In this document: one piece after another, positions 1,597-24,000 of the stretch
Layout of the letters: each line of letters opens with the position of its first letter
How positions within the stretch are numbered: the first letter of the stretch is position 1
Origin: Jiangella sp. DSM 45060
GTDB lineage: Bacteria > Actinomycetota > Actinomycetes > Jiangellales > Jiangellaceae
Assembly: GCF_900105175.1 (NCBI RefSeq)
Contig: NZ_LT629771.1
Location: 5,700,622-5,724,621, forward strand
Reading direction: 5' to 3'
Length of the DNA stretch: 24,000 nucleotides
Position numbers and translations under genes: made by a program
The notes under the pieces: model-generated
What the model saw: only the letters and a program-made list of their open reading frames with translations
What the model was told of the DNA's origin: nothing
Database searches by the model: none

Positions 1597-4185
1597 TCAG
1601 GGCCGCCGCCACCTGCCGGTGAACCGGTGCGAGCCCGGCCCGGCGGTGCCGGCGTACGGGTCGGCGAGCGGCAGGTCGAGGTGCACCGTGACGCCGGGCG
1701 GGACCTCGAGGGACAGCTCGAACCGGTCATCGTCGAGGGTCCAGGACACGGCGACGGGGCCGTACGGGCTGAGGTGCCGGGCCGACGCGTGGGTGAGCTG
1801 CCCGGTGACGAGCGGGCGCACCGCGACCTCCCGGTAGCCGGGCGCCGCCGGCGCGAGCCCGGCCACGCAGCGGTGCAGCCAGTCGGCGACCGCGCCGTAC
1901 GCGTAGTGGTTGAACGACGTCATCTCGCCGGGGTTGATCGAGCCGTCCGGCAGCATGGAGTCCCACCGCTCCCAGATCGTCGTGGCCCCCATCGTGACGG
2001 CGTACAGCCAGGACGGCGCGGTGCGGGTGAGCACCATCGAGTGCGCGAGGTCGGGACGGCCGGCCCGGCAGAGCGCGTCCAGCACCAGCGGCGTGCCGAG
2101 GAAGCCGGTGCTGACGTGGAAGCCCGCGGCCTGGACGAGCTCGGCGAGACGACGCCCCGCGCCGGCGCGCTGCTCGGGCGTCTCGAGCAGGTCCCACGCG
2201 ATGGCCAGCGCGTAGACGGTCTGGCAGTCGCTGCGCACCACGCCGTCGACGCCGACGTAGGCCTTGCCGAAGGCGCGGACGACGTCGGCGGCGAGGCTCT
2301 CGTACCGCGAGGCGTCGTCGTCGCGCCCCAGGACGGACGCGGTGCGCGCCAGCAGGTGTGCGCTGCGGGCCAGGTATGCCGTCGCGACGACGGCGGGGTC
2401 GGCCTTGGCCGCGGCGGCGTCGTCGGGCGGGGCGTCGGGGTCGAGCCAGTCGCCGAACTGGAAGCCGGTGTCCCAGAGCAGGGAGTCGCCGGCCAGCGAC
2501 CGCGCCTTCTCGACCCACGCGCGCATCGAGTCGTACTGCCGCTCCAGCACGCCGGTGTCGCCGTAGCGCTCGTACAGCGTCCACGGCACGTGGACGGCGG
2601 CGTCGGCCCAGCCGGCGGGCGGCGAGTGCGGCGGGTCGCCGGGACGCGGGCCGCCGATGTGCTCGTACACGACGTCGGGGACGACGAACGGGACGCCGCC
2701 ATCGGGACGCTGCTCGGCGGCGAGGTCGCGCAGCCACGAGCCGAGGAACCCGCCGACGTCGAAGAGGAAGGCGGCCGTCGGGGCGAACACCTGGATGTCG
2801 CCGGTCCAGCCGAGCCGCTCGTCGCGCTGCGGGCAGTCGGTCGGGACGTCGACGAAGTTGCCGCGCATGCCCCACACGACGTTCTCGTGCAGCCGCTCGA
2901 GGTCGGGCTCGGAGCACTCGAACCAGCCGGTGCGGCGCAGGTCGGAGCTGACGACGACGGCCTCGGCGTCGGATGCCTCGACGGACACGCCGCTGACCTC
3001 GGCGTACCGGAAGCCGTGGAAGGTGTACCGCGGCTCCAGCAGCTCCGGGCCGCCGGACAGGACGTAGCTGTCGGTGGCCTTGGCCGCGCGCAGCGGGCGC
3101 ACGCCGAGCTCGCCGTCCTCGAGCACCTCGGCGTGCCGGAGGGTGACCTCCTGACCCGGCGCTCCGGTCACCCGCAGCCGCACCCAGCCGACGACGTTCT
3201 GCCCGAAGTCGATCAGCTGGGCGCCGGACGGCGACGTGGACACCGACCGGGCCGGCACCGTCGCCACCTCGCGCACCGGCGGCCCGAGCGGCGCGACGAG
3301 GCGTGCGGCGTCGGACTCCAGGACGTCGACCGGCCCGGACGCCGAGACGGACGGGACCAGCGGCAGCCGCAGGTCGGTGCGCTGCCCGTCGTAGAGGTCG
3401 TCGGCGAGGACGCCGGTGGCGCCGGCCCGCCACGCGCCGTCGGTCACCACCGTCTCCTGGCGGCCGTCGGCGTAGGTGATCTCGAGCTGGGCCAGCAGCG
3501 CCAGCCGGTCGCCGTAGTGGTCGCGGCGCAGGTTCCACGTCAGCTGCCCGCGGTACCACCCGTTGCCCAGGCCGACGGCGAGCTGGGTCGGCCCAGCGCC
3601 CTGCAGGTGCGACGTCACGTCGAAGGTCTGGTAGCGCAGCCGCGACGCGTACGCCGTCCAGCCGGGCGCGAGCTGGTGGTCGCCGACCCGGCGGCCGCCG
3701 ATCCACGCGTCGTACACACCGTGCGCGGTGATGTACAACCGCGCGGAGGCCACCGGCCCGGCGAGGTCGAGGTCGCGGACCAGCGCGACGGCGCCGTCGT
3801 CGAGGCCGCCGACGTCGCGCGGGCTGATGAACCGAGCCGTGACGTCCTCGGGCCGCAGCAGACCGGCCTCGACGACGAGCGGCTCGCTCCAGTCGCTCCA
3901 GGCACCGCCGGCCTCGGCCCGCACCTCGACCTCGACGCGCTCGCGCGAGCGCAGCTCCGGGAACGGCCACGGCTGGAAGACCTGCCCGGCGCCGTCGACC
4001 CGAACGGCCCGGACGTCGCCGGAGGCGGCCCGCAGCCGCACCTCGTACGCGGTCTGCTCGCCCCCGCCGGACCGGGACCAGGACAACCTGGGCGCCGCGA
4101 CGCCGATGCCCAGCTCGGGCTCGCCGTACTCGGCCACGACTCTGTCGATGCGCGGCAGGTCGTCCGGGACGGTGCGGTCGGTCAT
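1597..4185 (-). CDS. alpha-L-rhamnosidase, glycoside hydrolase family 78, cytoplasmic (no signal peptide)
   Basis: An 862-aa ORF with GH78 hallmark stretches: APRLSWS near the N-terminus, FHGFRYAEV, DCPQRDERLGWTGD and TIWERWD. GGAGGA lies upstream of the ATG (rc of about 4190-4197). The stop abuts the DUF4328 stop, reading TGATCA at 1594-1599. Confidence 0.93.
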   Translation of the reverse strand: MTDRTVPDDLPRIDRVVAEYGEPELGIGVAAPRLSWSRSGGGEQTAYEVRLRAASGDVRAVRVDGAGQVFQPWPFPELRSRERVEVEVRAEAGGAWSDWSEPLVVEAGLLRPEDVTARFISPRDVGGLDDGAVALVRDLDLAGPVASARLYITAHGVYDAWIGGRRVGDHQLAPGWTAYASRLRYQTFDVTSHLQGAGPTQLAVGLGNGWYRGQLTWNLRRDHYGDRLALLAQLEITYADGRQETVVTDGAWRAGATGVLADDLYDGQRTDLRLPLVPSVSASGPVDVLESDAARLVAPLGPPVREVATVPARSVSTSPSGAQLIDFGQNVVGWVRLRVTGAPGQEVTLRHAEVLEDGELGVRPLRAAKATDSYVLSGGPELLEPRYTFHGFRYAEVSGVSVEASDAEAVVVSSDLRRTGWFECSEPDLERLHENVVWGMRGNFVDVPTDCPQRDERLGWTGDIQVFAPTAAFLFDVGGFLGSWLRDLAAEQRPDGGVPFVVPDVVYEHIGGPRPGDPPHSPPAGWADAAVHVPWTLYERYGDTGVLERQYDSMRAWVEKARSLAGDSLLWDTGFQFGDWLDPDAPPDDAAAAKADPAVVATAYLARSAHLLARTASVLGRDDDASRYESLAADVVRAFGKAYVGVDGVVRSDCQTVYALAIAWDLLETPEQRAGAGRRLAELVQAAGFHVSTGFLGTPLVLDALCRAGRPDLAHSMVLTRTAPSWLYAVTMGATTIWERWDSMLPDGSINPGEMTSFNHYAYGAVADWLHRCVAGLAPAAPGYREVAVRPLVTGQLTHASARHLSPYGPVAVSWTLDDDRFELSLEVPPGVTVHLDLPLADPYAGTAGPGSHRFTGRWRRP

Positions 4186-4262: not shown

Positions 4263-4335
4263 CGGTGACGCCGTCGCCAGCCCGCCCGGCTGGGAGGGAG
4301 TCCCACCCTACGGGCGGGCACCGACACACTCGCGC
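4263..4335. repeat. diverged copy of the ~70-bp hairpin repeat, inverted relative to the copies at 21569-21794
   Basis: Positions 4279-4332 (CAGCCCGCCCGGCTGGGAGGGAGTCCCACCCTACGGGCGGGCACCGACACACTCG) match the reverse complement of 21569-21625 with a handful of substitutions. Internal arms CCCGCCCG (4281-4288) and CGGGCGGG (4311-4318) can pair. The ORF-track shadows share RVCRCPPVGW, seen in 4219..4443(-) and 21620..21973(+). Confidence 0.65.
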
Positions 4336-19579: not shown

Positions 19580-21124
19580 TCAGTACACCTCGGCGGCCTC
19601 GCCGGTGACCGACACCTCGTGGAAGCGGGCCCGGCCGTTGGCCGGCATCTCGAACCCCTCGACGCGCTCGCGGTATGCGACGTTGTTGCCGAGGTCCATC
19701 GGGAAGATGCCGACCGCCTGCTCCCAGATCAGCGTCGCGGCCTGCTCGTACAGCGTGGCGCGCTCCTCCGGGTCCAGTGCCGACTTCGCCGCCAGCAGCA
19801 GCTGGTCCAGCTCCTCGCTGCAGAACCCGTTGCGGTTCGCCTCGCACGTGTAGAGCCGGCCGAGCGTGTAGTCGGCGTCACCGGTGCCGACGCTGTTGGT
19901 CTGCAGGTTCAGGTCCCAGCTCAGCGCGTTGAGGTCGTCGATCCACTGGGCCCGCTCCTTCTCCAGCGGCTCGACCGTGATGCCGACCTCGGCCCAGTGC
20001 GACATCAGCGTCTGCGCGAGCGCGCGGATGTTCGCGCCGGACTCGCGCGGCCACTGCAGCGTCGTGCTGAAGCCGTCGGGGTAGCCGGCCTGGGCCAGCA
20101 GCTGCCGAGCCAACTCCGGGTCGTACTCGTACGGCTGCTGCTCGCTGGCGCCGAAGACGTCCTGCGGGATCGGGCCGCGCGCCACCGTCGCGGCGTCGCC
20201 GAACAGGTCGGCCACGATGGTCTCGACGTCGACGGCGTGCCACATCGCCTGCCGCACCCGCGGGTCGGTGAACGGCTCGCGGCTGGAGTTGAACCACATG
20301 AAGTAGTACGTGTAGCTGGGCGACGTCTCGAAGACGATGTCGTCGTTGTCCTGGATCGACGGCGCCTGGTCCGGCGGCACGCCGGTCGTGAGGTCGACCT
20401 CGCCCGTCTCCAGCGCGGTCAGGCGGGCGGAGATCTCCGGAATGTAGGTGAACTCCAGCCGGTCCAGTTCCGGCGCGCCGCCCCAGTAGTCCTCGTTCGC
20501 GGTCATCACGACCCGCTCGTCGGGCAGGAACTCGTCGAACACGAACGGCCCCGAGCCCACCGGCGCCCGCCAGAAGTCCGCCTCGCCGATGCGGTCGGCC
20601 GGGCCGACGAACAGCAGCGAGACGGTGCTGATCACGGTGCCCAGTGGCTGCGCCGTCCGGATGGTCACGGTGTGCTCGTCGGTCGCCTCGATCGCCGCGA
20701 CGCCCGCCCACAGCGGCGCGAGCGGCCCGTTCAGCTCGATCAGCCGCTCCGCCGACGCCTTGACGTCGGCCGCCGTGAGCGGGGTCCCATCGTGGAACGT
20801 GACGTCGTCGCGCAGGTGGAAGACCCAGGTCAGGTCGTCGGGGTTCTCCCACGACTCGGCCAGGACCGGGACGAACTCGCCGTCCTCCAGGCGGACCAGC
20901 GGGTCGAGCAGGTGCTGGACGATCTCTTGGACGCCCTCCTCGGCGGACTGCTCGCCGTGCGGGTCGAGCGAGACCGGCGCCACACTTGGCGCGACGCGGA
21001 GCACCTGGTCACCACCGCCCCCGGCCGCGCCCTCGTCGTCGTCCCCTCCGCAGGCGGCGAGGGCCACGGCCAGGACGGCCGCGAGCCCCAGTGCCAGCGG
21101 ACGGTGTGCCCGGCTGCGCATCAT
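19580..21124 (-). CDS. ABC transporter substrate-binding lipoprotein, family 5 (peptide/nickel/opine type, DppA/OppA-like)
   Basis: Same frame as track ORF 19580..21436. The start is set at the ATG at 21124 (MMRSRAHRPLALGLAAVLAVALAACGG, a signal peptide with lipobox LAAC), preceded by GGAGAA. This ATG forms an ATGA overlap with the upstream EEP stop. The protein is 514 aa with a typical SBP_bac_5 length and composition. Confidence 0.92.
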   Translation of the reverse strand: MMRSRAHRPLALGLAAVLAVALAACGGDDDEGAAGGGGDQVLRVAPSVAPVSLDPHGEQSAEEGVQEIVQHLLDPLVRLEDGEFVPVLAESWENPDDLTWVFHLRDDVTFHDGTPLTAADVKASAERLIELNGPLAPLWAGVAAIEATDEHTVTIRTAQPLGTVISTVSLLFVGPADRIGEADFWRAPVGSGPFVFDEFLPDERVVMTANEDYWGGAPELDRLEFTYIPEISARLTALETGEVDLTTGVPPDQAPSIQDNDDIVFETSPSYTYYFMWFNSSREPFTDPRVRQAMWHAVDVETIVADLFGDAATVARGPIPQDVFGASEQQPYEYDPELARQLLAQAGYPDGFSTTLQWPRESGANIRALAQTLMSHWAEVGITVEPLEKERAQWIDDLNALSWDLNLQTNSVGTGDADYTLGRLYTCEANRNGFCSEELDQLLLAAKSALDPEERATLYEQAATLIWEQAVGIFPMDLGNNVAYRERVEGFEMPANGRARFHEVSVTGEAAEVY

Positions 21125-22137
21125 GGCTTCTCCAATGTGTAGGTGACGACCACCGGCTTGTGGTCGGAGGGCGCGACGCCCTCGTGGAAGAACTCGACGA
21201 CCTCGGCGCAGCGCGGCCGCAGCGGACCGCGGTGGAACTGCCAGTCGATCGCCTTGGCGACTGGCTCCGGTGCGGCCCAGCCGGGGCGGGGGCCGGTGCC
21301 GGGGCCCGGCAGCGGCACGACCGGGTGCGTGATCGGCGAGCTGCGGCCCAGCGCCGCGAACGCGTCGGCGAACCCGGCCTCGCGCAGCACCCACAACGGC
21401 CGCGCGTAGTCGTTGACGTCGGCGGTGAAGATGCACGGCCCGTCGCCGGCCAGCCGGTCCAGCGCGGCGACGATGTTGCGGGCCTGCCCGACCCGCGGAC
21501 TCACGTCGTCGGCGCGCTCCTGCGGATGGCCGGGCCAGGTCAGGTGGGCCGTGGCGTAGACGAACGCGCGAGTCTGTCGGTGCCCGCCCGTAGGGTGGGG
21601 GCCCTCCCGGCCGGGCGGGGTGTCACTCCCGGCGAACGCGACGTCATCCGGGCCGAGCGAGGCGTCGGTGGCGCCGAGCGAGCGAGTCTGTCGGTGCCCG
21701 CCCGTAGGGTGGGGGCCCTCCCGGCCGGGCGGGGTGTCACTCCCGGCGAACGAAGCGTCGCGCGAGCCGGGCGGGGTGTCACTCCCGGCGAACGCGGCGT
21801 CAACCGGCTCTGACGTGGCGCGGGTGCGCAGCCGCACCCAGAAGAGCCGCGCATGCTCGGCCCTGATGCCGACGTCCTCGGCGCCGTGCTCCTCCGGCGT
21901 GAACAGGTCGTCGCGCCACCAGAGGTTGCTCTGCGTGCTCCAGCCCGGGAACGGGTCGTCCACCCGGCGGTGACCAGGCAGGGCGGCGTCGATGAGCTCG
22001 CGCAGGCGCGGCGTCAGCTCCTGGACGGACAGCAGGTCGGGCGGGCGGACCTCGAACAGCGACCGCAGCGCCGGCACGCGCGCGTCCAGGTGGTGGCCGC
22101 CCCAGAGGTTGCAGGTCATCGACACGAACGTGGTCAC
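21121..22137 (-). CDS. endonuclease/exonuclease/phosphatase (EEP) family protein carrying an in-frame repeat insertion
   Basis: A 338-aa ORF with a GTG start that forms a GTGA overlap with the upstream stop. EEP motifs are present: SMTCNLWGG, LSVQELTP, IFTADVND and the C-terminal APSDHKPVVV. About 95 aa between RLRTRA and FVYATAHL are encoded by the repeat array and have no EEP counterpart. Confidence 0.85.
   Translation of the reverse strand: MTTFVSMTCNLWGGHHLDARVPALRSLFEVRPPDLLSVQELTPRLRELIDAALPGHRRVDDPFPGWSTQSNLWWRDDLFTPEEHGAEDVGIRAEHARLFWVRLRTRATSEPVDAAFAGSDTPPGSRDASFAGSDTPPGREGPHPTGGHRQTRSLGATDASLGPDDVAFAGSDTPPGREGPHPTGGHRQTRAFVYATAHLTWPGHPQERADDVSPRVGQARNIVAALDRLAGDGPCIFTADVNDYARPLWVLREAGFADAFAALGRSSPITHPVVPLPGPGTGPRPGWAAPEPVAKAIDWQFHRGPLRPRCAEVVEFFHEGVAPSDHKPVVVTYTLEKP
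21569..21638. repeat. hairpin repeat, full copy 1 (inside the EEP CDS)
   Basis: CGAGTCTGTCGGTGCCCGCCCGTAGGGTGGGGGCCCTCCCGGCCGGGCGGGGTGTCACTCCCGGCGAACG. It is 70/70 identical to copy 2, which lies 114 bp (38 codons) away. Confidence 0.85.
21683..21752. repeat. hairpin repeat, full copy 2 (inside the EEP CDS)
   Basis: Identical to 21569-21638. Both copies encode FAGSDTPPGREGPHPTGGHRQTR in the EEP reading frame. Confidence 0.85.
21767..21794. repeat. hairpin repeat, truncated copy 3 (internal-deletion derivative)
   Basis: CCGGGCGGGGTGTCACTCCCGGCGAACG matches the 3' 28 bp of the full copies. It is preceded by GCGAG, as the full copies are, so it looks like a copy that lost the central ~40 bp. 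It lies 42 bp (14 codons) from the equivalent point in copy 2. Confidence 0.75.
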
Positions 22138-22877
22138 GCGGTCCTCCTCGCGGCAGCGACGTCATCGTCCGCCGCGGCCGGCCCGGCGGCCGCCAAGGCC
22201 TGTCCGAGCGGATCGTGGTTGTAGCCGGCCAGCCGCCGCGCGAGCGTCGCCCCGTCCGGCCCGACCAGGACGGACAGCTCGGTCACCGAGCAGTTGCCGG
22301 GCGGCTCGAGCAGGGCGTGGCCGCCGGCCGGCAACCCCATGGCCGCGGCGACGGCGACCCGGATCGGCCCGCCGTGGGTGAAGACCAACGCGACCGGCTC
22401 GGCGGCGAGCCGACCGGCCAGCTCCCGCAGCGCAGCGTCGACCCGGGCGGTCAGTTGGGCGAACGTCTCGCCGCCGCCGCGCGGGAGGTCCTCGCCGCGG
22501 CGGATCGCGGCGATCTGCTCGGGGTACGCGGCCGCCACCTCGGCGGTGGTGCGGCCGCTCCACTCGCCGTTGTCGATCTCGCGCAGCCGCGGGTCGGTGA
22601 CGACGGCGGACGGAGCGAGGTCCAGGTAGGCGGCGGCGGTCTCGGTGACCCGCGGGAGGTCGCTGACAGCGACGGCGCCGACCCGCGGGTGGTGGTCGCG
22701 CAGCCACCGCGCGACCGTCGCCGCCTGGTCGCGGCCGCGGCCGGACAGTCCCGGCCCGAGCTGCCCCTGGATGCGGCCCTCCGCGTTCCACGTCGATTCG
22801 CCATGCCGGATCAGCACCAGACGCACCCGGCGGGCGCCGTCCACCGCCGGCTCGTCGACCTGCCATCTCGCGTTCAC
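22134..22877 (-). CDS. histidine phosphatase family protein (phosphoglycerate-mutase-like)
   Basis: Same frame as track ORF 22134..23159. The start is placed at the GTG at 22877 (VNARWQVDEPAVDGARRVRLVLIRHGESTWN). It has the RHG catalytic motif and a second His in FTHGGPIR. The upstream part of the track ORF is low-complexity and overlaps the divergent gene. Confidence 0.82.
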   Translation of the reverse strand: MNARWQVDEPAVDGARRVRLVLIRHGESTWNAEGRIQGQLGPGLSGRGRDQAATVARWLRDHHPRVGAVAVSDLPRVTETAAAYLDLAPSAVVTDPRLREIDNGEWSGRTTAEVAAAYPEQIAAIRRGEDLPRGGGETFAQLTARVDAALRELAGRLAAEPVALVFTHGGPIRVAVAAAMGLPAGGHALLEPPGNCSVTELSVLVGPDGATLARRLAGYNHDPLGQALAAAGPAAADDDVAAARRTA

Positions 22878-22907
22878 CGGCTCAGGGTCGGGCACCCCGC
22901 CACGGCC

Positions 22908-22944
22908 GGGCAACGCGGTTCCGCCCTGTGCAACCGCGTTGCCC
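22908..22944. promoter_or_regulatory. perfect 13-bp inverted repeat in a divergent intergenic region (candidate operator)
   Basis: GGGCAACGCGGTT (22908-22920), an 11-nt spacer, then AACCGCGTTGCCC (22932-22944). It lies between the histidine-phosphatase operon start (22877, -) and the LTD gene start (23002, +), so it is not positioned as a terminator. Confidence 0.45.
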
Positions 22945-23001
22945 CGGCGGCCCACTGAGCAGCAGGGTGGCCGGCGCCGGACCACACGAGAGGTGACCAG
23001 C

Positions 23002-24000
23002 ATGCTGCGTTCCACCCGCCGAGCGGCGGCCCTGCTCACCGCGGCGATCCTCGCCGCCAGCGCGGGCGTGGCCACGCCCGCGGCGGGGAGCGCCCGCCCG
23101 GACGTCCTCGTCAGCGAGGTCGCCGCCGGCGGCCCGGGCGGCGCCGACGACGCCTTCATCGAGCTGACGAATTACGGCGACGCGCCCGCCGACCTCGACG
23201 CCTGGCGCGTCTACCACTGCGGCGCCAGCGGCAGCCGCGGCGCCAGCCCGCTGGTGCCGGCGCTGGCGGGGGTGACGTTGGCGCCCGGCGAGACGTTCCT
23301 GCTGGCGCACCGCTCGTCCAGCCTGGCCGCGACGGCGGACGCGGTGTTCGGCACGTCGCTGGCCGACGACGCGATGGGCGTGTGGCTGGAGGACGGCGAC
23401 GCCCGGCTGGTCGACCGGATCGCCGTGTCACCGGCGTCGCGCGACAGCATCTGCGGCCCGCCGGTGCCGAGCACGCTGGACTTCGCCCGCGGCCAGTCCT
23501 ACCAGCGGGTCGGCGCGACCGGCGACGTGGGCGCCGACTTCGTCCGGGCCGCGCGCACGCCGAGCGCCGCCAACGCCGAGCGGCCGGACCCCGGCGTCCA
23601 GCGCGGCGACGTGCTGGTCGGCGAGCTGGCGAACGGCGGCCCGGGCGGCGACGCCGACGAGTTCGTGGCGCTGGAGAACACCGGCGCCGAGCCGGTGGAC
23701 GTCGGCGGCTGGCGGCTCTCGGTGTGCACGACGCTCGGGGCGCGGCAGACCGCGGGGCTGCTCGCGCAGGTCCCGGCCGGGACGACGCTGCCGCCCGGCG
23801 AGCGGCTGCTGGTGGCGCACGAGTCCGCGCAGGTGCAGGAAGACGGCGCCGTCGTGCGCTACCCGGACCCGGCGCTGGCCGAGGACGGTTTCGGTGTGCT
23901 GGTGGAGGACGCCGCGGGCACCGTGGTCGACGCCGTCGGCGTGTACGAGTCCGACGCCGTCCACGAGCCCGCCGTCGACAGCGCCTGCACGCAGGGGACG
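23002..24000 (+). CDS. secreted protein with tandem lamin-tail (LTD) domains, N-terminal 333 aa (runs off the right edge)
   Basis: My own translation from the ATG at 23002 (GAGAGG upstream) stays open to the window end. It reads MLRSTRRAAALLTAAILAASAGVATPAAG (signal peptide). Two LTD-like modules follow, beginning VLVSEVAAGGPGGADDAFIELTNYGDAPADLDAWRV and VLVGELANGGPGGDADEFVALENTGAEPVDVGGWRL. It is not in the ORF track because it has no stop. Confidence 0.8.
   Translation, partial: MLRSTRRAAALLTAAILAASAGVATPAAGSARPDVLVSEVAAGGPGGADDAFIELTNYGDAPADLDAWRVYHCGASGSRGASPLVPALAGVTLAPGETFLLAHRSSSLAATADAVFGTSLADDAMGVWLEDGDARLVDRIAVSPASRDSICGPPVPSTLDFARGQSYQRVGATGDVGADFVRAARTPSAANAERPDPGVQRGDVLVGELANGGPGGDADEFVALENTGAEPVDVGGWRLSVCTTLGARQTAGLLAQVPAGTTLPPGERLLVAHESAQVQEDGAVVRYPDPALAEDGFGVLVEDAAGTVVDAVGVYESDAVHEPAVDSACTQGT

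What the first reader, a model, noticed from the sequence alone, without database searches (positions are those of the whole stretch)
21560..21810. Hairpin-forming repeat amplified in frame inside an EEP phosphoesterase gene
Seen in the sequence:
- Two 70-bp units (21569-21638 and 21683-21752) are 100% identical and lie 114 bp apart, which is exactly 38 codons.
- A third unit (21767-21794) looks like the same element with its central ~40 bp deleted, offset by 42 bp, which is 14 codons.
- Each unit contains imperfect inverted arms (CCCGCCCGTAGGGTGGG / CCCTCCCGGCCGGGCGGG).
- The array adds about 95 aa (DAAFAGSDTPPG...REGPHPTGGHRQTR, twice) between two EEP core strands, RLRTRA and FVYATAHL. It introduces no stop, and the downstream catalytic motifs ADVND and SDHKP stay in frame.

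Inference, with three alternatives:
- A small non-autonomous (REP/MITE-like) element inserted into a surface loop and was tolerated or exapted as a Pro/Gly/His-rich loop.
- The gene is a very recent pseudogene in the making.
- The duplication is an assembly artefact.

All offsets being multiples of three suggests selection to keep the ORF and the translationally coupled SBP gene downstream.
Basis: seen in the sequence. Interest (0 to 1): 0.7.

Follow-up and report, generated by a model that had tools for sequence, protein, structure and literature searches.

The report
Small palindromic repeat inserted in-frame in genes
A roughly 65-70 bp GC-rich palindromic repeat scattered through Jiangella genomes has landed inside a working phosphoesterase gene, been duplicated in frame, and now encodes a floppy ~81-residue surface loop; this resembles the Rickettsia palindromic elements but occurs in a free-living high-GC actinobacterium.

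Summary
Window 21569-21638 and 21683-21752 are identical 70-mers 114 bp apart, and 21767-21794 is a 28-nt partial copy. All sit in frame in an EEP gene (21121-22137, minus strand) of Jiangella sp. DSM 45060.

The unit belongs to a dispersed, so far Jiangella-only repeat family.
- Other copies lie in intergenic DNA, including window 4279-4332.
- Further copies lie in frame in three other genes: a 2-oxoacid dehydrogenase E2 linker, an AXE1-like hydrolase and an FAD/Fe-S oxidase. They use different reading frames and both orientations, so this is DNA-level copying, not a protein domain.

The EEP insert is shared by three close species and absent from J. asiatica and all other genera.
- The flanking gene is under purifying selection (dN/dS 0.08-0.18).
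- AlphaFold places the insert as a low-confidence loop between two confident beta-strands.
- Pseudogene and assembly-artefact readings are rejected.

Genic copies repeatedly carry adjacent tandem repeats with periods that are multiples of three. Copy number varies: the E2 gene has two copies in this genome and one in relatives. The core diverges more slowly than the host genes.

The mobilising mechanism is unknown. I score this as a new member of a known kind (RPE/REP/MITE-like), of moderate interest.

The parts
21121..22137 (-). Host gene: endonuclease/exonuclease/phosphatase (EEP) family protein, 338 aa, identical to the Jiangella sp. DSM 45060 protein P0001.
   Evidence: ORF. Pfam PF03372 match. 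100% identity to P0001. EEP fold confirmed by the AF2 model and Foldseek against PDB (TM 0.75-0.8 to TDP2 and bacterial EEP chains).
21565..21825 (-). Loop region (residues 105-191) holding the whole insert. It has 87 codons where J. asiatica has 7.
   Evidence: Protein alignment. DNA of the loop in four species. pLDDT 37-61 and no secondary structure between strands 98-105 and 191-198.
21683..21752 (-). Full element copy 1 in gene order, encoding FAGSDTPPGREGPHPTGGHRQTR.
   Evidence: Exact 70-mer. nhmmer E=3e-16 against the family profile.
21569..21638 (-). Full element copy 2 in gene order, identical to copy 1.
21767..21794 (-). Partial copy (head plus left arm only, CGTTCGCCGGGAGTGACACCCCGCCCGG), forming a 42-nt tandem step with copy 1.
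21639..21682 (-). 44-nt spacer between the two full copies (SLGATDASLGPDDV). Its length and sequence differ between species.
   Evidence: core spacing is 114 nt here, 177 nt in J. alba and 156 nt in J. muralis.
4279..4332 (+). Diverged member of the same repeat family in intergenic DNA, about 95 nt upstream of the start (4185) of the minus-strand gene 1597-4185. The stems are kept and the loop differs (AGT).
   Evidence: nhmmer E=2e-10 and 5e-12. Sequence and ORFs. Fold z -2.9.
19580..21124 (-). Downstream SBP_bac_5 solute-binding protein gene. Its ATG overlaps the EEP stop as ATGA.
   Evidence: Pfam match. Sequence. The same 4-nt overlaps appear in the J. alba gene calls.
22134..23159 (-). 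Upstream histidine-phosphatase (His_Phos_1) gene, given as the maximal ORF. Its stop overlaps the EEP GTG start as GTGA.

Best explanation
The 70-bp unit is one copy of a short (about 50-nt conserved core, 65-70 nt with head and tail) GC-rich, imperfectly palindromic repeat family. The copies must have been spread by DNA-level copying within a subclade of the genus Jiangella.

Proposed history of the EEP locus:
- One copy entered the loop between two beta-strands of the EEP enzyme in the common ancestor of Jiangella sp. DSM 45060, J. alba and J. muralis.
- Type A copies have no stop codon in four of six frames. The loop is solvent-exposed, so the insertion was tolerated.
- The element and pieces of it were then locally duplicated, probably by slippage or unequal recombination promoted by the palindrome. 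Only changes in multiples of three survived, because the gene and the translationally coupled downstream gene are under selection.
- The result is a disordered Pro/Gly/His-rich loop of about 81 extra residues.

What is shown:
- the dispersed family;
- several frames and both orientations in different genes;
- presence/absence among species;
- purifying selection on the host gene;
- the disordered-loop location;
- copy-number and spacer variation.

What is inferred:
- mobility as the origin of the copies;
- slippage as the amplification mechanism;
- neutrality or tolerance of the encoded peptide.
For: Family:
- An exact 24-mer scan of species-representative genomes hit only Jiangella: J. muralis at the EEP locus plus four other loci, and J. 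ureilytica at one.
- A profile search of 175 kb of held Jiangella DNA added window 4279-4332 and L002 616-683.

Contexts:
- intergenic between divergent genes (L006);
- upstream of a gene start (window 4279-4332);
- overlapping a NUDIX gene stop (L002);
- the E2 acyltransferase linker, read as VTPRPAGRAPTLRAGTD (L007);
- an AXE1-like hydrolase, opposite orientation, read as SAPARRVGALPAGRGDTP (L008);
- an FAD/Fe-S oxidase interdomain region, read as SVPARRVGALPHGAGST (L009, with an orthologous copy in L004).

Frames: four of six frames of type A are open, and every genic copy uses an open frame.

Presence/absence:
- The EEP insert is in three species and absent in J. asiatica and in the other genera shown. 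All other hits are 251-306 aa.
- The E2 insert is in DSM 45060 (two copies), J. muralis, L011 and L010 (one each). The site is empty in six other Jiangella species.

Host gene function:
- dN/dS is 0.075-0.18.
- Catalytic residues are invariant.
- AF2 gives a core pLDDT above 90 and an insert pLDDT of 37-61.

Local amplification: tandem repeats of period 21/42/177, 21, 21/51/18 and 27 nt abut or overlap genic copies. The J. alba 21-mer matches the element head at 16 of 21 positions.

Core conservation:
- No change in 56 nt x 2 copies among three species whose flanks are 94-96% identical (P 8e-4 to 9e-3 per pair).
- E2 copies: 68/68 identical where flanks are 90% identical, and 50/52 where flanks are 82% identical (P about 8e-4 and 3e-3).
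Against: - No transposase, RAYT or parent IS was identified, and none could be searched for genome-wide with the tools and caps available.
- No clear target-site duplication was found. The termini are asymmetric rather than clean terminal inverted repeats.
- Only about 10 independent loci were seen. The genome-wide copy number is a rough extrapolation: 2 bystander copies in about 146 kb, so of the order of 100 per genome, with a Poisson range of about 12-365.
- The hairpin stability of the EEP copy is not significant against shuffles.
- The older oxidase copy is not significantly better conserved than its flanks (5/60 differences, P=0.15).
- The strong conservation of the core could reflect a cellular function rather than recent mobility.
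Confidence: 0.8

Rival explanations
1. The element is maintained mainly because it does something for the cell at the DNA or RNA level. Examples would be a binding site for a nucleoid or regulatory protein, or a hairpin or G-quadruplex-forming motif affecting replication, transcription or mRNA stability. On this view the EEP copies are functional cis-elements that happen to be translated. This is not exclusive of a mobile origin.
For: - The core changes more slowly than host coding sequence, including at synonymous positions.
- Variation among family members falls in the loop and bulge, while the stems stay invariant.
- One member converts the A.A mismatch to a T-A pair.
- All four representative copies examined keep a G3-N1-G3-N12-14-G3-N1-G3 pattern on both strands.
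Against: - Copies occur in both orientations relative to transcription and in unrelated positions (promoter region, gene 3' end, mid-gene), with no consistent placement.
- There is no Rfam match.
- The hairpin z-scores are modest.
- Gene conversion among copies, or recent spread, would equally explain the identity.
Confidence: 0.25
2. The repeated segment is a genuine protein-level repeat or domain (SDTPPGREGPHPTGGHRQT) selected for its amino-acid sequence, and the DNA repeat is a by-product.
For: - The peptide is identical in all six EEP copies of the three species.
Against: - The same DNA is read in three other frames or orientations in other genes and also lies in intergenic DNA.
- Synonymous sites are also invariant.
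- AF2 predicts no structure for the segment.
- A search of 1.84 billion representative proteins with the reverse-frame translation (SVPARRVGALP...) found only unrelated low-complexity hits. The EEP-frame peptide itself was not searched there, and the word-index search that included it was uninformative.
Confidence: 0.03
3. The gene is a recent pseudogene disrupted by repeat expansion.
For: - The insertion is large, about a third of the original protein length, and sits in the catalytic domain.
Against: - The reading frame is open in three species despite different insert lengths (338, 382 and 359 aa).
- dN/dS of the flanks is 0.075-0.18.
- The residues invariant across the family (N10, E40, H198, D240, N242, D243, D298, D325, H326) are kept.
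- The core folds confidently.
- The gene overlaps its neighbours as GTGA and ATGA.
Confidence: 0.03
4. The duplication is an assembly artefact.
For: - Exact 70-bp repeats can be mis-assembled.
Against: - The source record is a 7.49-Mb contig.
- J. alba and J. muralis, assembled independently, also show two full cores at the same site, with different spacers.
- The E2 protein of the same genome also carries two copies.
Confidence: 0.02

Closest known systems
Rickettsia palindromic elements (RPEs)
   Same: - Short palindromic dispersed repeats found both between genes and inside many unrelated ORFs.
- Inserted in frame, adding a peptide that is compatible with the host protein's fold (review PMC10969869, read).
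- Here four host genes carry copies in loops or linkers.
   Different: - No sequence relationship.
- RPEs are about 100-150 bp, AT-rich, and confined to obligate intracellular alphaproteobacteria.
- This element is about 65-70 bp, about 80% G+C, and sits in a free-living 7.5-Mb actinobacterium.
- Local tandem amplification and flanking 21-27-nt repeats are prominent here.
REP / REPIN elements mobilised by RAYT transposases
   Same: - A short imperfect palindrome with asymmetric conserved head and tail.
- Dispersed copies that are highly similar to each other.
- No evident target-site duplication.
   Different: - REPs are essentially extragenic and often occur as inverted pairs (REPINs/BIMEs). 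Here half the loci are intragenic and the pairs are direct tandem copies.
- No 5' GTAG-type head at the canonical place.
- The presence of a RAYT gene is untested.
Bacterial MITEs (for example ERIC, BOX, Correia, Nezha)
   Same: - Non-coding size class.
- Palindromic.
- Occasional in-frame fusions with host ORFs (PMC10969869).
   Different: - No clean terminal inverted repeats and no demonstrable target-site duplication.
- No related full-length IS in 196 kb of Jiangella DNA examined.
Mycobacterial interspersed repetitive units (MIRU-VNTR); from my own knowledge, not from a paper read here
   Same: - Actinobacterial.
- Units of 40-100 bp that vary in tandem copy number between close relatives.
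- Units preserve reading frames and translational coupling in operons.
   Different: - MIRUs lie between genes of operons, not inside enzyme domains.
- There is no sequence similarity.

Membership tests
Rickettsia palindromic elements (RPE) | In-frame insertion in several unrelated protein-coding genes | tested here: met
   EEP, E2 acyltransferase, AXE1-like hydrolase and FAD/Fe-S oxidase carry copies.
Rickettsia palindromic elements (RPE) | Insertion at positions compatible with the host fold (surface loops or linkers) | tested here: met
   - EEP: a low-pLDDT loop between confident strands.
- E2: between the lipoyl and E3-binding domains.
- Oxidase: between the Fer4 and CCG domains.
Rickettsia palindromic elements (RPE) | Sequence homology to one of the RPE families and occurrence in Rickettsia | tested here: not met
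   The organism is Jiangella. The exact scan hit only Jiangella. The relation to RPEs is therefore an analogy, not membership.
REP/RAYT | Short imperfect palindrome (20-40 nt) with a conserved asymmetric head | tested here: inconclusive
   The palindrome of about 38-46 nt and the conserved tail CACCGACA are present. There is no canonical 5' GTAG head; a GTAG occurs only inside the hairpin on the opposite strand.
REP/RAYT | Predominantly extragenic, hundreds of copies, often in inverted pairs | tested here: not met
   Of the 7 independent loci catalogued, 4 are intragenic. The paired copies are direct, not inverted. Copy number is only extrapolated.
REP/RAYT | Cognate RAYT (Y1 transposase) gene in the genome | not testable with these tools
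   Whole Jiangella genomes could not be scanned.
MITE | Terminal inverted repeats | tested here: inconclusive
   The inverted arms CCCGCCC(G)/(C)GGGCGGG are internal. The outermost head (GGCCGRRGTGACA) and tail (CACCGACAnnCTCG) are not complementary.
MITE | Target-site duplication | tested here: inconclusive
   The filled E2 site (L010) was compared with the empty site (J. mangrovi, L012). Both flanks resemble one stretch of about 15 nt in the empty site, but the sequence is Ala-codon-rich and diverged. No duplication is discernible at the EEP site.
MITE | Related autonomous IS with the same ends | not testable with these tools
   No second copy lies within 8-20 kb of any element in the DNA held. 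A genome-wide search was not possible.
Endonuclease/exonuclease/phosphatase (Pfam PF03372), the host gene | Profile match, conserved catalytic residues and the EEP fold | tested here: met
   - 30.7 bits against a cut-off of 24.5.
- Invariant N10, E40, D240, N242, D325 and H326.
- Foldseek hits to TDP2 and bacterial EEP structures, E=1e-15.

The most novel reading that the evidence does not exclude
The element is more than tolerated junk. It would be a structure-forming (hairpin or G-quadruplex) repeat that is kept near-identical by selection or conversion. It would spread by a mechanism that needs no classical transposase ends. Wherever it lands in a gene it would seed in-frame tandem-repeat expansion, creating new disordered loops and lengthening linkers in enzymes. 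That would make it a lineage-specific generator of protein length variation in a culturable, free-living actinobacterium.
Probability: 0.2. Interest if true: 0.7.

Novelty: new member of a known kind. Interest (0 to 1): 0.5.

Why it matters
In-frame colonisation of working genes by small palindromic repeats is best known from Rickettsia, which is hard to manipulate. I found no description of such a family in Jiangella or other Actinomycetota in the searchable literature.

Jiangella is free-living and culturable, and this family offers natural comparisons:
- natural 'with' and 'without' alleles of the same enzymes in sister species (EEP: 257 vs 338-382 aa; E2: 407-445 vs 528-569 aa);
- natural copy-number variants.

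Questions that become directly testable:
- how proteins tolerate or exploit inserted selfish DNA;
- how new loops and linkers arise;
- whether palindromes drive local tandem expansion.

There is also a practical point for annotation. These inserts lower Pfam scores: the EEP match is only 30.7 bits. They also inflate apparent protein divergence among close species.

Tried and rejected
- Protein word-index search with a concatenate of five frame translations found nothing. A local phmmer run showed the known carriers should have scored, so the result is uninformative rather than negative.
- HMMER search of 1.84 billion representative proteins with the reverse-frame translation gave only unrelated low-complexity repeats. 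The 50% clustering probably hides insert-bearing Jiangella proteins behind insert-free representatives.
- Exact scans of metagenome and viral contigs with the most conserved 24-mer gave 0 hits.
- blastn against plasmids gave only chance-level 24-36-nt matches.
- Rfam gave no match at E<=1.
- The look-up of encoding contigs holds no record for the DSM 45060 proteins, so no more of this genome could be read. It also had no record for the J. aurantiaca E2 protein.
- A covariation test was not pursued. The stems are nearly invariant, and type B copies align one nucleotide out of register.
- Sequence search of PDB with the insert-free orthologue found nothing. The fold search was used instead.
Full report
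**1. The observation**

The window is 73.9% G+C.
- On the + strand, 21569-21638 and 21683-21752 are identical 70-mers (71 nt with one extra base). Their starts are 114 nt apart.
- 21767-21794 repeats the last 28 nt of the unit, 42 nt further on.
- An exact 70-mer pair is expected about 3e-28 times by chance in 24 kb of this composition.
- Tandem Repeats Finder also sees a loose 21-nt periodicity over 21604-21802.
- The array lies in the minus-strand ORF 21121-22137 (338 aa). This ORF matches Pfam Exo_endo_phos end to end.
- It is 100% identical to the annotated EEP-family protein of Jiangella sp. DSM 45060, which comes from a 7.49-Mb contig.
- The EEP start overlaps the stop of an upstream histidine-phosphatase gene as GTGA. 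The EEP stop overlaps the start of a downstream SBP_bac_5 gene as ATGA. The same 4-nt overlaps appear in the J. alba gene calls.

**2. Orthologues**

Among 195 homologues, only three are long: DSM 45060 (338 aa), J. alba (382 aa) and J. muralis (359 aa).
- J. asiatica (257 aa) and the homologues from other genera (Phytoactinopolyspora, Kribbella, Asanoa, Thermasporomyces and others, 251-306 aa) have a 4-7-residue turn at this point.
- The loci are syntenic.
- At the DNA level each long orthologue carries two copies of a 56-nt core: AGTGACACCCCGCCCGGCCGGGAGGGCCCCCACCCTACGGGCGGGCACCGACAGACT.
- All six copies are identical. The material between and around them differs in length and sequence: the core spacing is 114, 177 and 156 nt.
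- In J. alba and J. muralis that material consists largely of 21-nt tandem repeats.
- The J. alba 21-mer matches the first 21 nt of the core at 16 of 21 positions. The short repeats therefore look like amplified, diverged copies of the element's head.

**3. A dispersed family, not a protein domain**

An exact 24-mer from the centre of the core was scanned against one genome per prokaryotic species.
- It hit only Jiangella: the J. muralis EEP locus, four other J. muralis contigs, and one J. ureilytica contig.
- DSM 45060 and J. alba did not appear even at the EEP locus. I infer they are not species representatives in that collection.
- A profile built from these copies was run over all Jiangella DNA held (175 kb). 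It found two more diverged members: window 4279-4332 and L002 616-683.

The contexts are as follows.

| Locus | Context | Orientation and reading |
|---|---|---|
| L006 | Between divergent genes | Intergenic |
| Window 4279-4332 | About 95 nt upstream of the start of gene 1597-4185 | Intergenic |
| L002 616-683 | Overlaps the stop codon of a NUDIX gene | Gene 3' end |
| L007 | Linker between the lipoyl and E3-binding domains of a 2-oxoacid dehydrogenase E2 | VTPRPAGRAPTLRAGTD |
| L008 | AXE1-like hydrolase, just before a beta-strand | Opposite orientation, SAPARRVGALPAGRGDTP |
| L009 (J. muralis), with orthologous copy in L004 (J. ureilytica) | Between the Fe-S and CCG domains of an FAD-linked oxidase | Opposite orientation, SVPARRVGALPHGAGST |

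- With the EEP frame (SDTPPGREGPHPTGGHRQT), three distinct readings of the element are in use. The two opposite-orientation copies share one.
- Type A copies are stop-free in four of six frames, and every genic copy uses an open frame.
- One nucleotide sequence read in different frames and orientations, and also present in non-coding DNA, cannot be explained by selection on a peptide. It requires DNA-level copying.

**4. Anatomy**

Two subtypes share the invariant segment GGGAGGG..CCCACCCTACGGGCGGGCACCGACA.
- An outer stem CCCGCCC(G)/(C)GGGCGGG encloses a bulge and an inner stem GGGAGGG/CCCACCC, which has an A.A mismatch.
- Differences between family members fall in the loop (CC, AGT, TGG) and the bulge.
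- One member has GGGTGGG, which turns the mismatch into a T-A pair.
- The predicted hairpins are stable in absolute terms, -15 to -21 kcal/mol as DNA.
- Only the two intergenic members clearly exceed dinucleotide shuffles (z -2.5 to -2.9 as DNA, -1.8 to -2.8 as RNA). The EEP copy does not (z -1.2 as DNA, -0.55 as RNA).
- The outermost head (GGCCGRRGTGACA) and tail (CACCGACAnnCTCG) are conserved within type A but are not complementary to each other. The element is therefore asymmetric, more REP-like than MITE-like.
- Both strands of the four representative copies examined fit G3-N1-G3-N12-14-G3-N1-G3. This is only a sequence pattern; nothing was tested.
- Rfam has no match.

**5. The host gene is alive**

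- For the 714 alignable flanking nucleotides, DSM 45060, J. alba and J. muralis differ at 4-6% of sites. pS is 0.13-0.16 and dN/dS is 0.075-0.18.
- The residues invariant across 120 family members are retained. They include N10, E40, H198, D240, N242, D243, D298, D325 and H326.
- AlphaFold2, run with that alignment, gives 225 residues at pLDDT of 90 or more.
- The model has a canonical EEP fold. Foldseek against PDB gives E=1e-15 and a target-normalised TM-score of 0.75-0.8 to TDP2 and bacterial EEP structures.
- Residues about 106-190 have pLDDT 37-61 and no secondary structure. They lie between strands 98-105 and 191-198.
- The pseudogene reading is therefore rejected.
- The artefact reading is rejected because two independent assemblies show the same two-core layout.

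**6. The same behaviour at a second gene**

- The E2 orthologue of DSM 45060 itself (P0131, 569 aa) has two copies, ISAEVTPRPAGRAPTLRAGTDNLE twice, 63 residues apart.
- J. muralis, an ENA assembly (L011) and a Logan assembly (L010) have one copy each.
- J. endophytica, J. aurantiaca, J. alkaliphila, J. mangrovi, J. ureilytica and J. asiatica have a short empty linker.
- The genic copies in E2 and the hydrolase are again abutted or overlapped by tandem repeats, with periods of 21, 51/18 and 27 nt.
- All tandem-repeat periods at genic copies are multiples of three, apart from a weak secondary 20-nt TRF consensus in J. alba. This is what selection for an open frame would leave.
- Insertion, in-frame local amplification and variable flanking repeats are thus a recurring property of this family. 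The EEP gene is not an oddity.

**7. Conservation of the core**

| Comparison | Core | Flanks | P |
|---|---|---|---|
| EEP, three species pairwise | 0 differences in 112 nt | 94-96% identical | 8e-4 to 9e-3 |
| E2, J. muralis vs L011 | 68/68 identical | 90% identical | 8e-4 |
| E2, J. muralis vs L010 | 50/52 identical | 82% identical | 3e-3 |
| Oxidase, J. ureilytica vs J. muralis | 55/60 identical | 86% identical | 0.15 |

- The core tends to evolve more slowly than coding sequence that is itself constrained.
- Possible reasons are gene conversion among copies, recent spread, or a sequence-level function. I cannot separate these.

**8. Distribution and abundance**

- There were no exact matches in metagenome or viral contigs. 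Plasmids gave only chance-level matches.
- No copy was found in 21 kb of J. asiatica or 21 kb of J. mangrovi.
- In about 146 kb of DNA from element-bearing Jiangella that was fetched for other reasons, two bystander copies were found. This implies of the order of 100 copies per 7.4-Mb genome, with a Poisson range of roughly 12-365. This is an extrapolation, not a count.

**9. Mechanism, committed**

The most likely account has five steps.
1. A non-autonomous palindromic repeat spread in the DSM 45060 / J. alba / J. muralis lineage. Its origin by mobility is inferred; the mobilising enzyme is unknown.
2. Insertions in genes survived only in stop-free frames and in loops or linkers. The pattern is shown; the selective filter is inferred.
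3. The palindrome promoted local slippage or unequal exchange. This produced extra full and partial copies and short derivative repeats. The association is shown at three genes; the cause is inferred.
4. Only length changes in multiples of three persisted, because the enzyme and its translationally coupled neighbour are under selection. The dN/dS values and the gene overlaps are shown.
5. The encoded Pro/Gly/His-rich segment is a disordered surface loop. This is predicted, not measured.

**10. Comparison with known systems and novelty**

- The closest analogue in behaviour is the Rickettsia palindromic element. The MITE review read (PMC10969869) describes it as inserted in frame in many unrelated genes, with apparent compatibility with protein structure.
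- Membership is excluded: there is no homology and the taxon differs.
- REP/RAYT and MITE membership each fail or remain untested on defining features (see the membership table).
- Literature searches found no description of such a family in Jiangella or other Actinomycetota. The library is incomplete, so this is absence of evidence.
- I classify the finding as a new member of a known kind and give it moderate interest (0.5).

Noticed in passing
window 4279-4332 (+): A second, diverged copy of the same repeat family lies in this window. It is intergenic, about 95 nt upstream of the ATG (4185) of the 862-aa minus-strand gene 1597-4185. Its loop is AGT instead of CC, and its hairpin is better supported (z -2.9).
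   Followed up: yes
Not in the window: E2 acyltransferase of the same genome (protein P0131); related loci L007 5442-5510, L011 10569-10637, L010 10378-10445: The 2-oxoacid dehydrogenase E2 linker of Jiangella sp. DSM 45060 carries two in-frame copies of the element in a different reading frame. Close relatives carry one copy, and six other Jiangella species carry none.
   Followed up: yes
L001 10323-10700; L002 8976-9185; L007 5412-5451 and 5519-5630; L008 6248-6347: Genic copies of the element are directly flanked or overlapped by short tandem repeats, with periods of 21, 42, 177, 51/18 and 27 nt. The J. alba 21-mer resembles the element's first 21 nt (16/21). This suggests the palindrome seeds local repeat expansion.
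   Followed up: partly
window 21576-21620 and the other representative copies examined (type B L006, window 4279-4332, L002 NUDIX-end): Both strands of the four representative copies examined fit a G-quadruplex-like pattern: G3-N1-G3-N12-14-G3-N1-G3. This competes with the hairpin. It is a sequence pattern only.
   Followed up: no
window 21121-21124 and 22134-22137: Three genes (His_Phos_1, EEP, SBP_bac_5) are chained by 4-nt GTGA and ATGA start/stop overlaps, conserved in J. alba, J. muralis and J. asiatica. The operon sits next to a LacI regulator and an Opp/Dpp-type ABC transporter. The substrate is unknown.
   Followed up: partly
L010 10316-10496 vs L012 (J. mangrovi E2 linker): Comparing a filled E2 site with an empty one, both flanks of the element resemble one stretch of about 15 nt in the empty site (GCGGCCAGTGCGGCG). 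This may be a long target duplication, but the sequence is Ala-codon-rich and diverged.
   Followed up: partly
tools: The word-indexed protein search failed to retrieve proteins that contain 23-residue exact matches to the query. A local phmmer run scored them at E=1e-10 to 1e-16. Short-motif queries are not reliable with that tool.
   Followed up: yes
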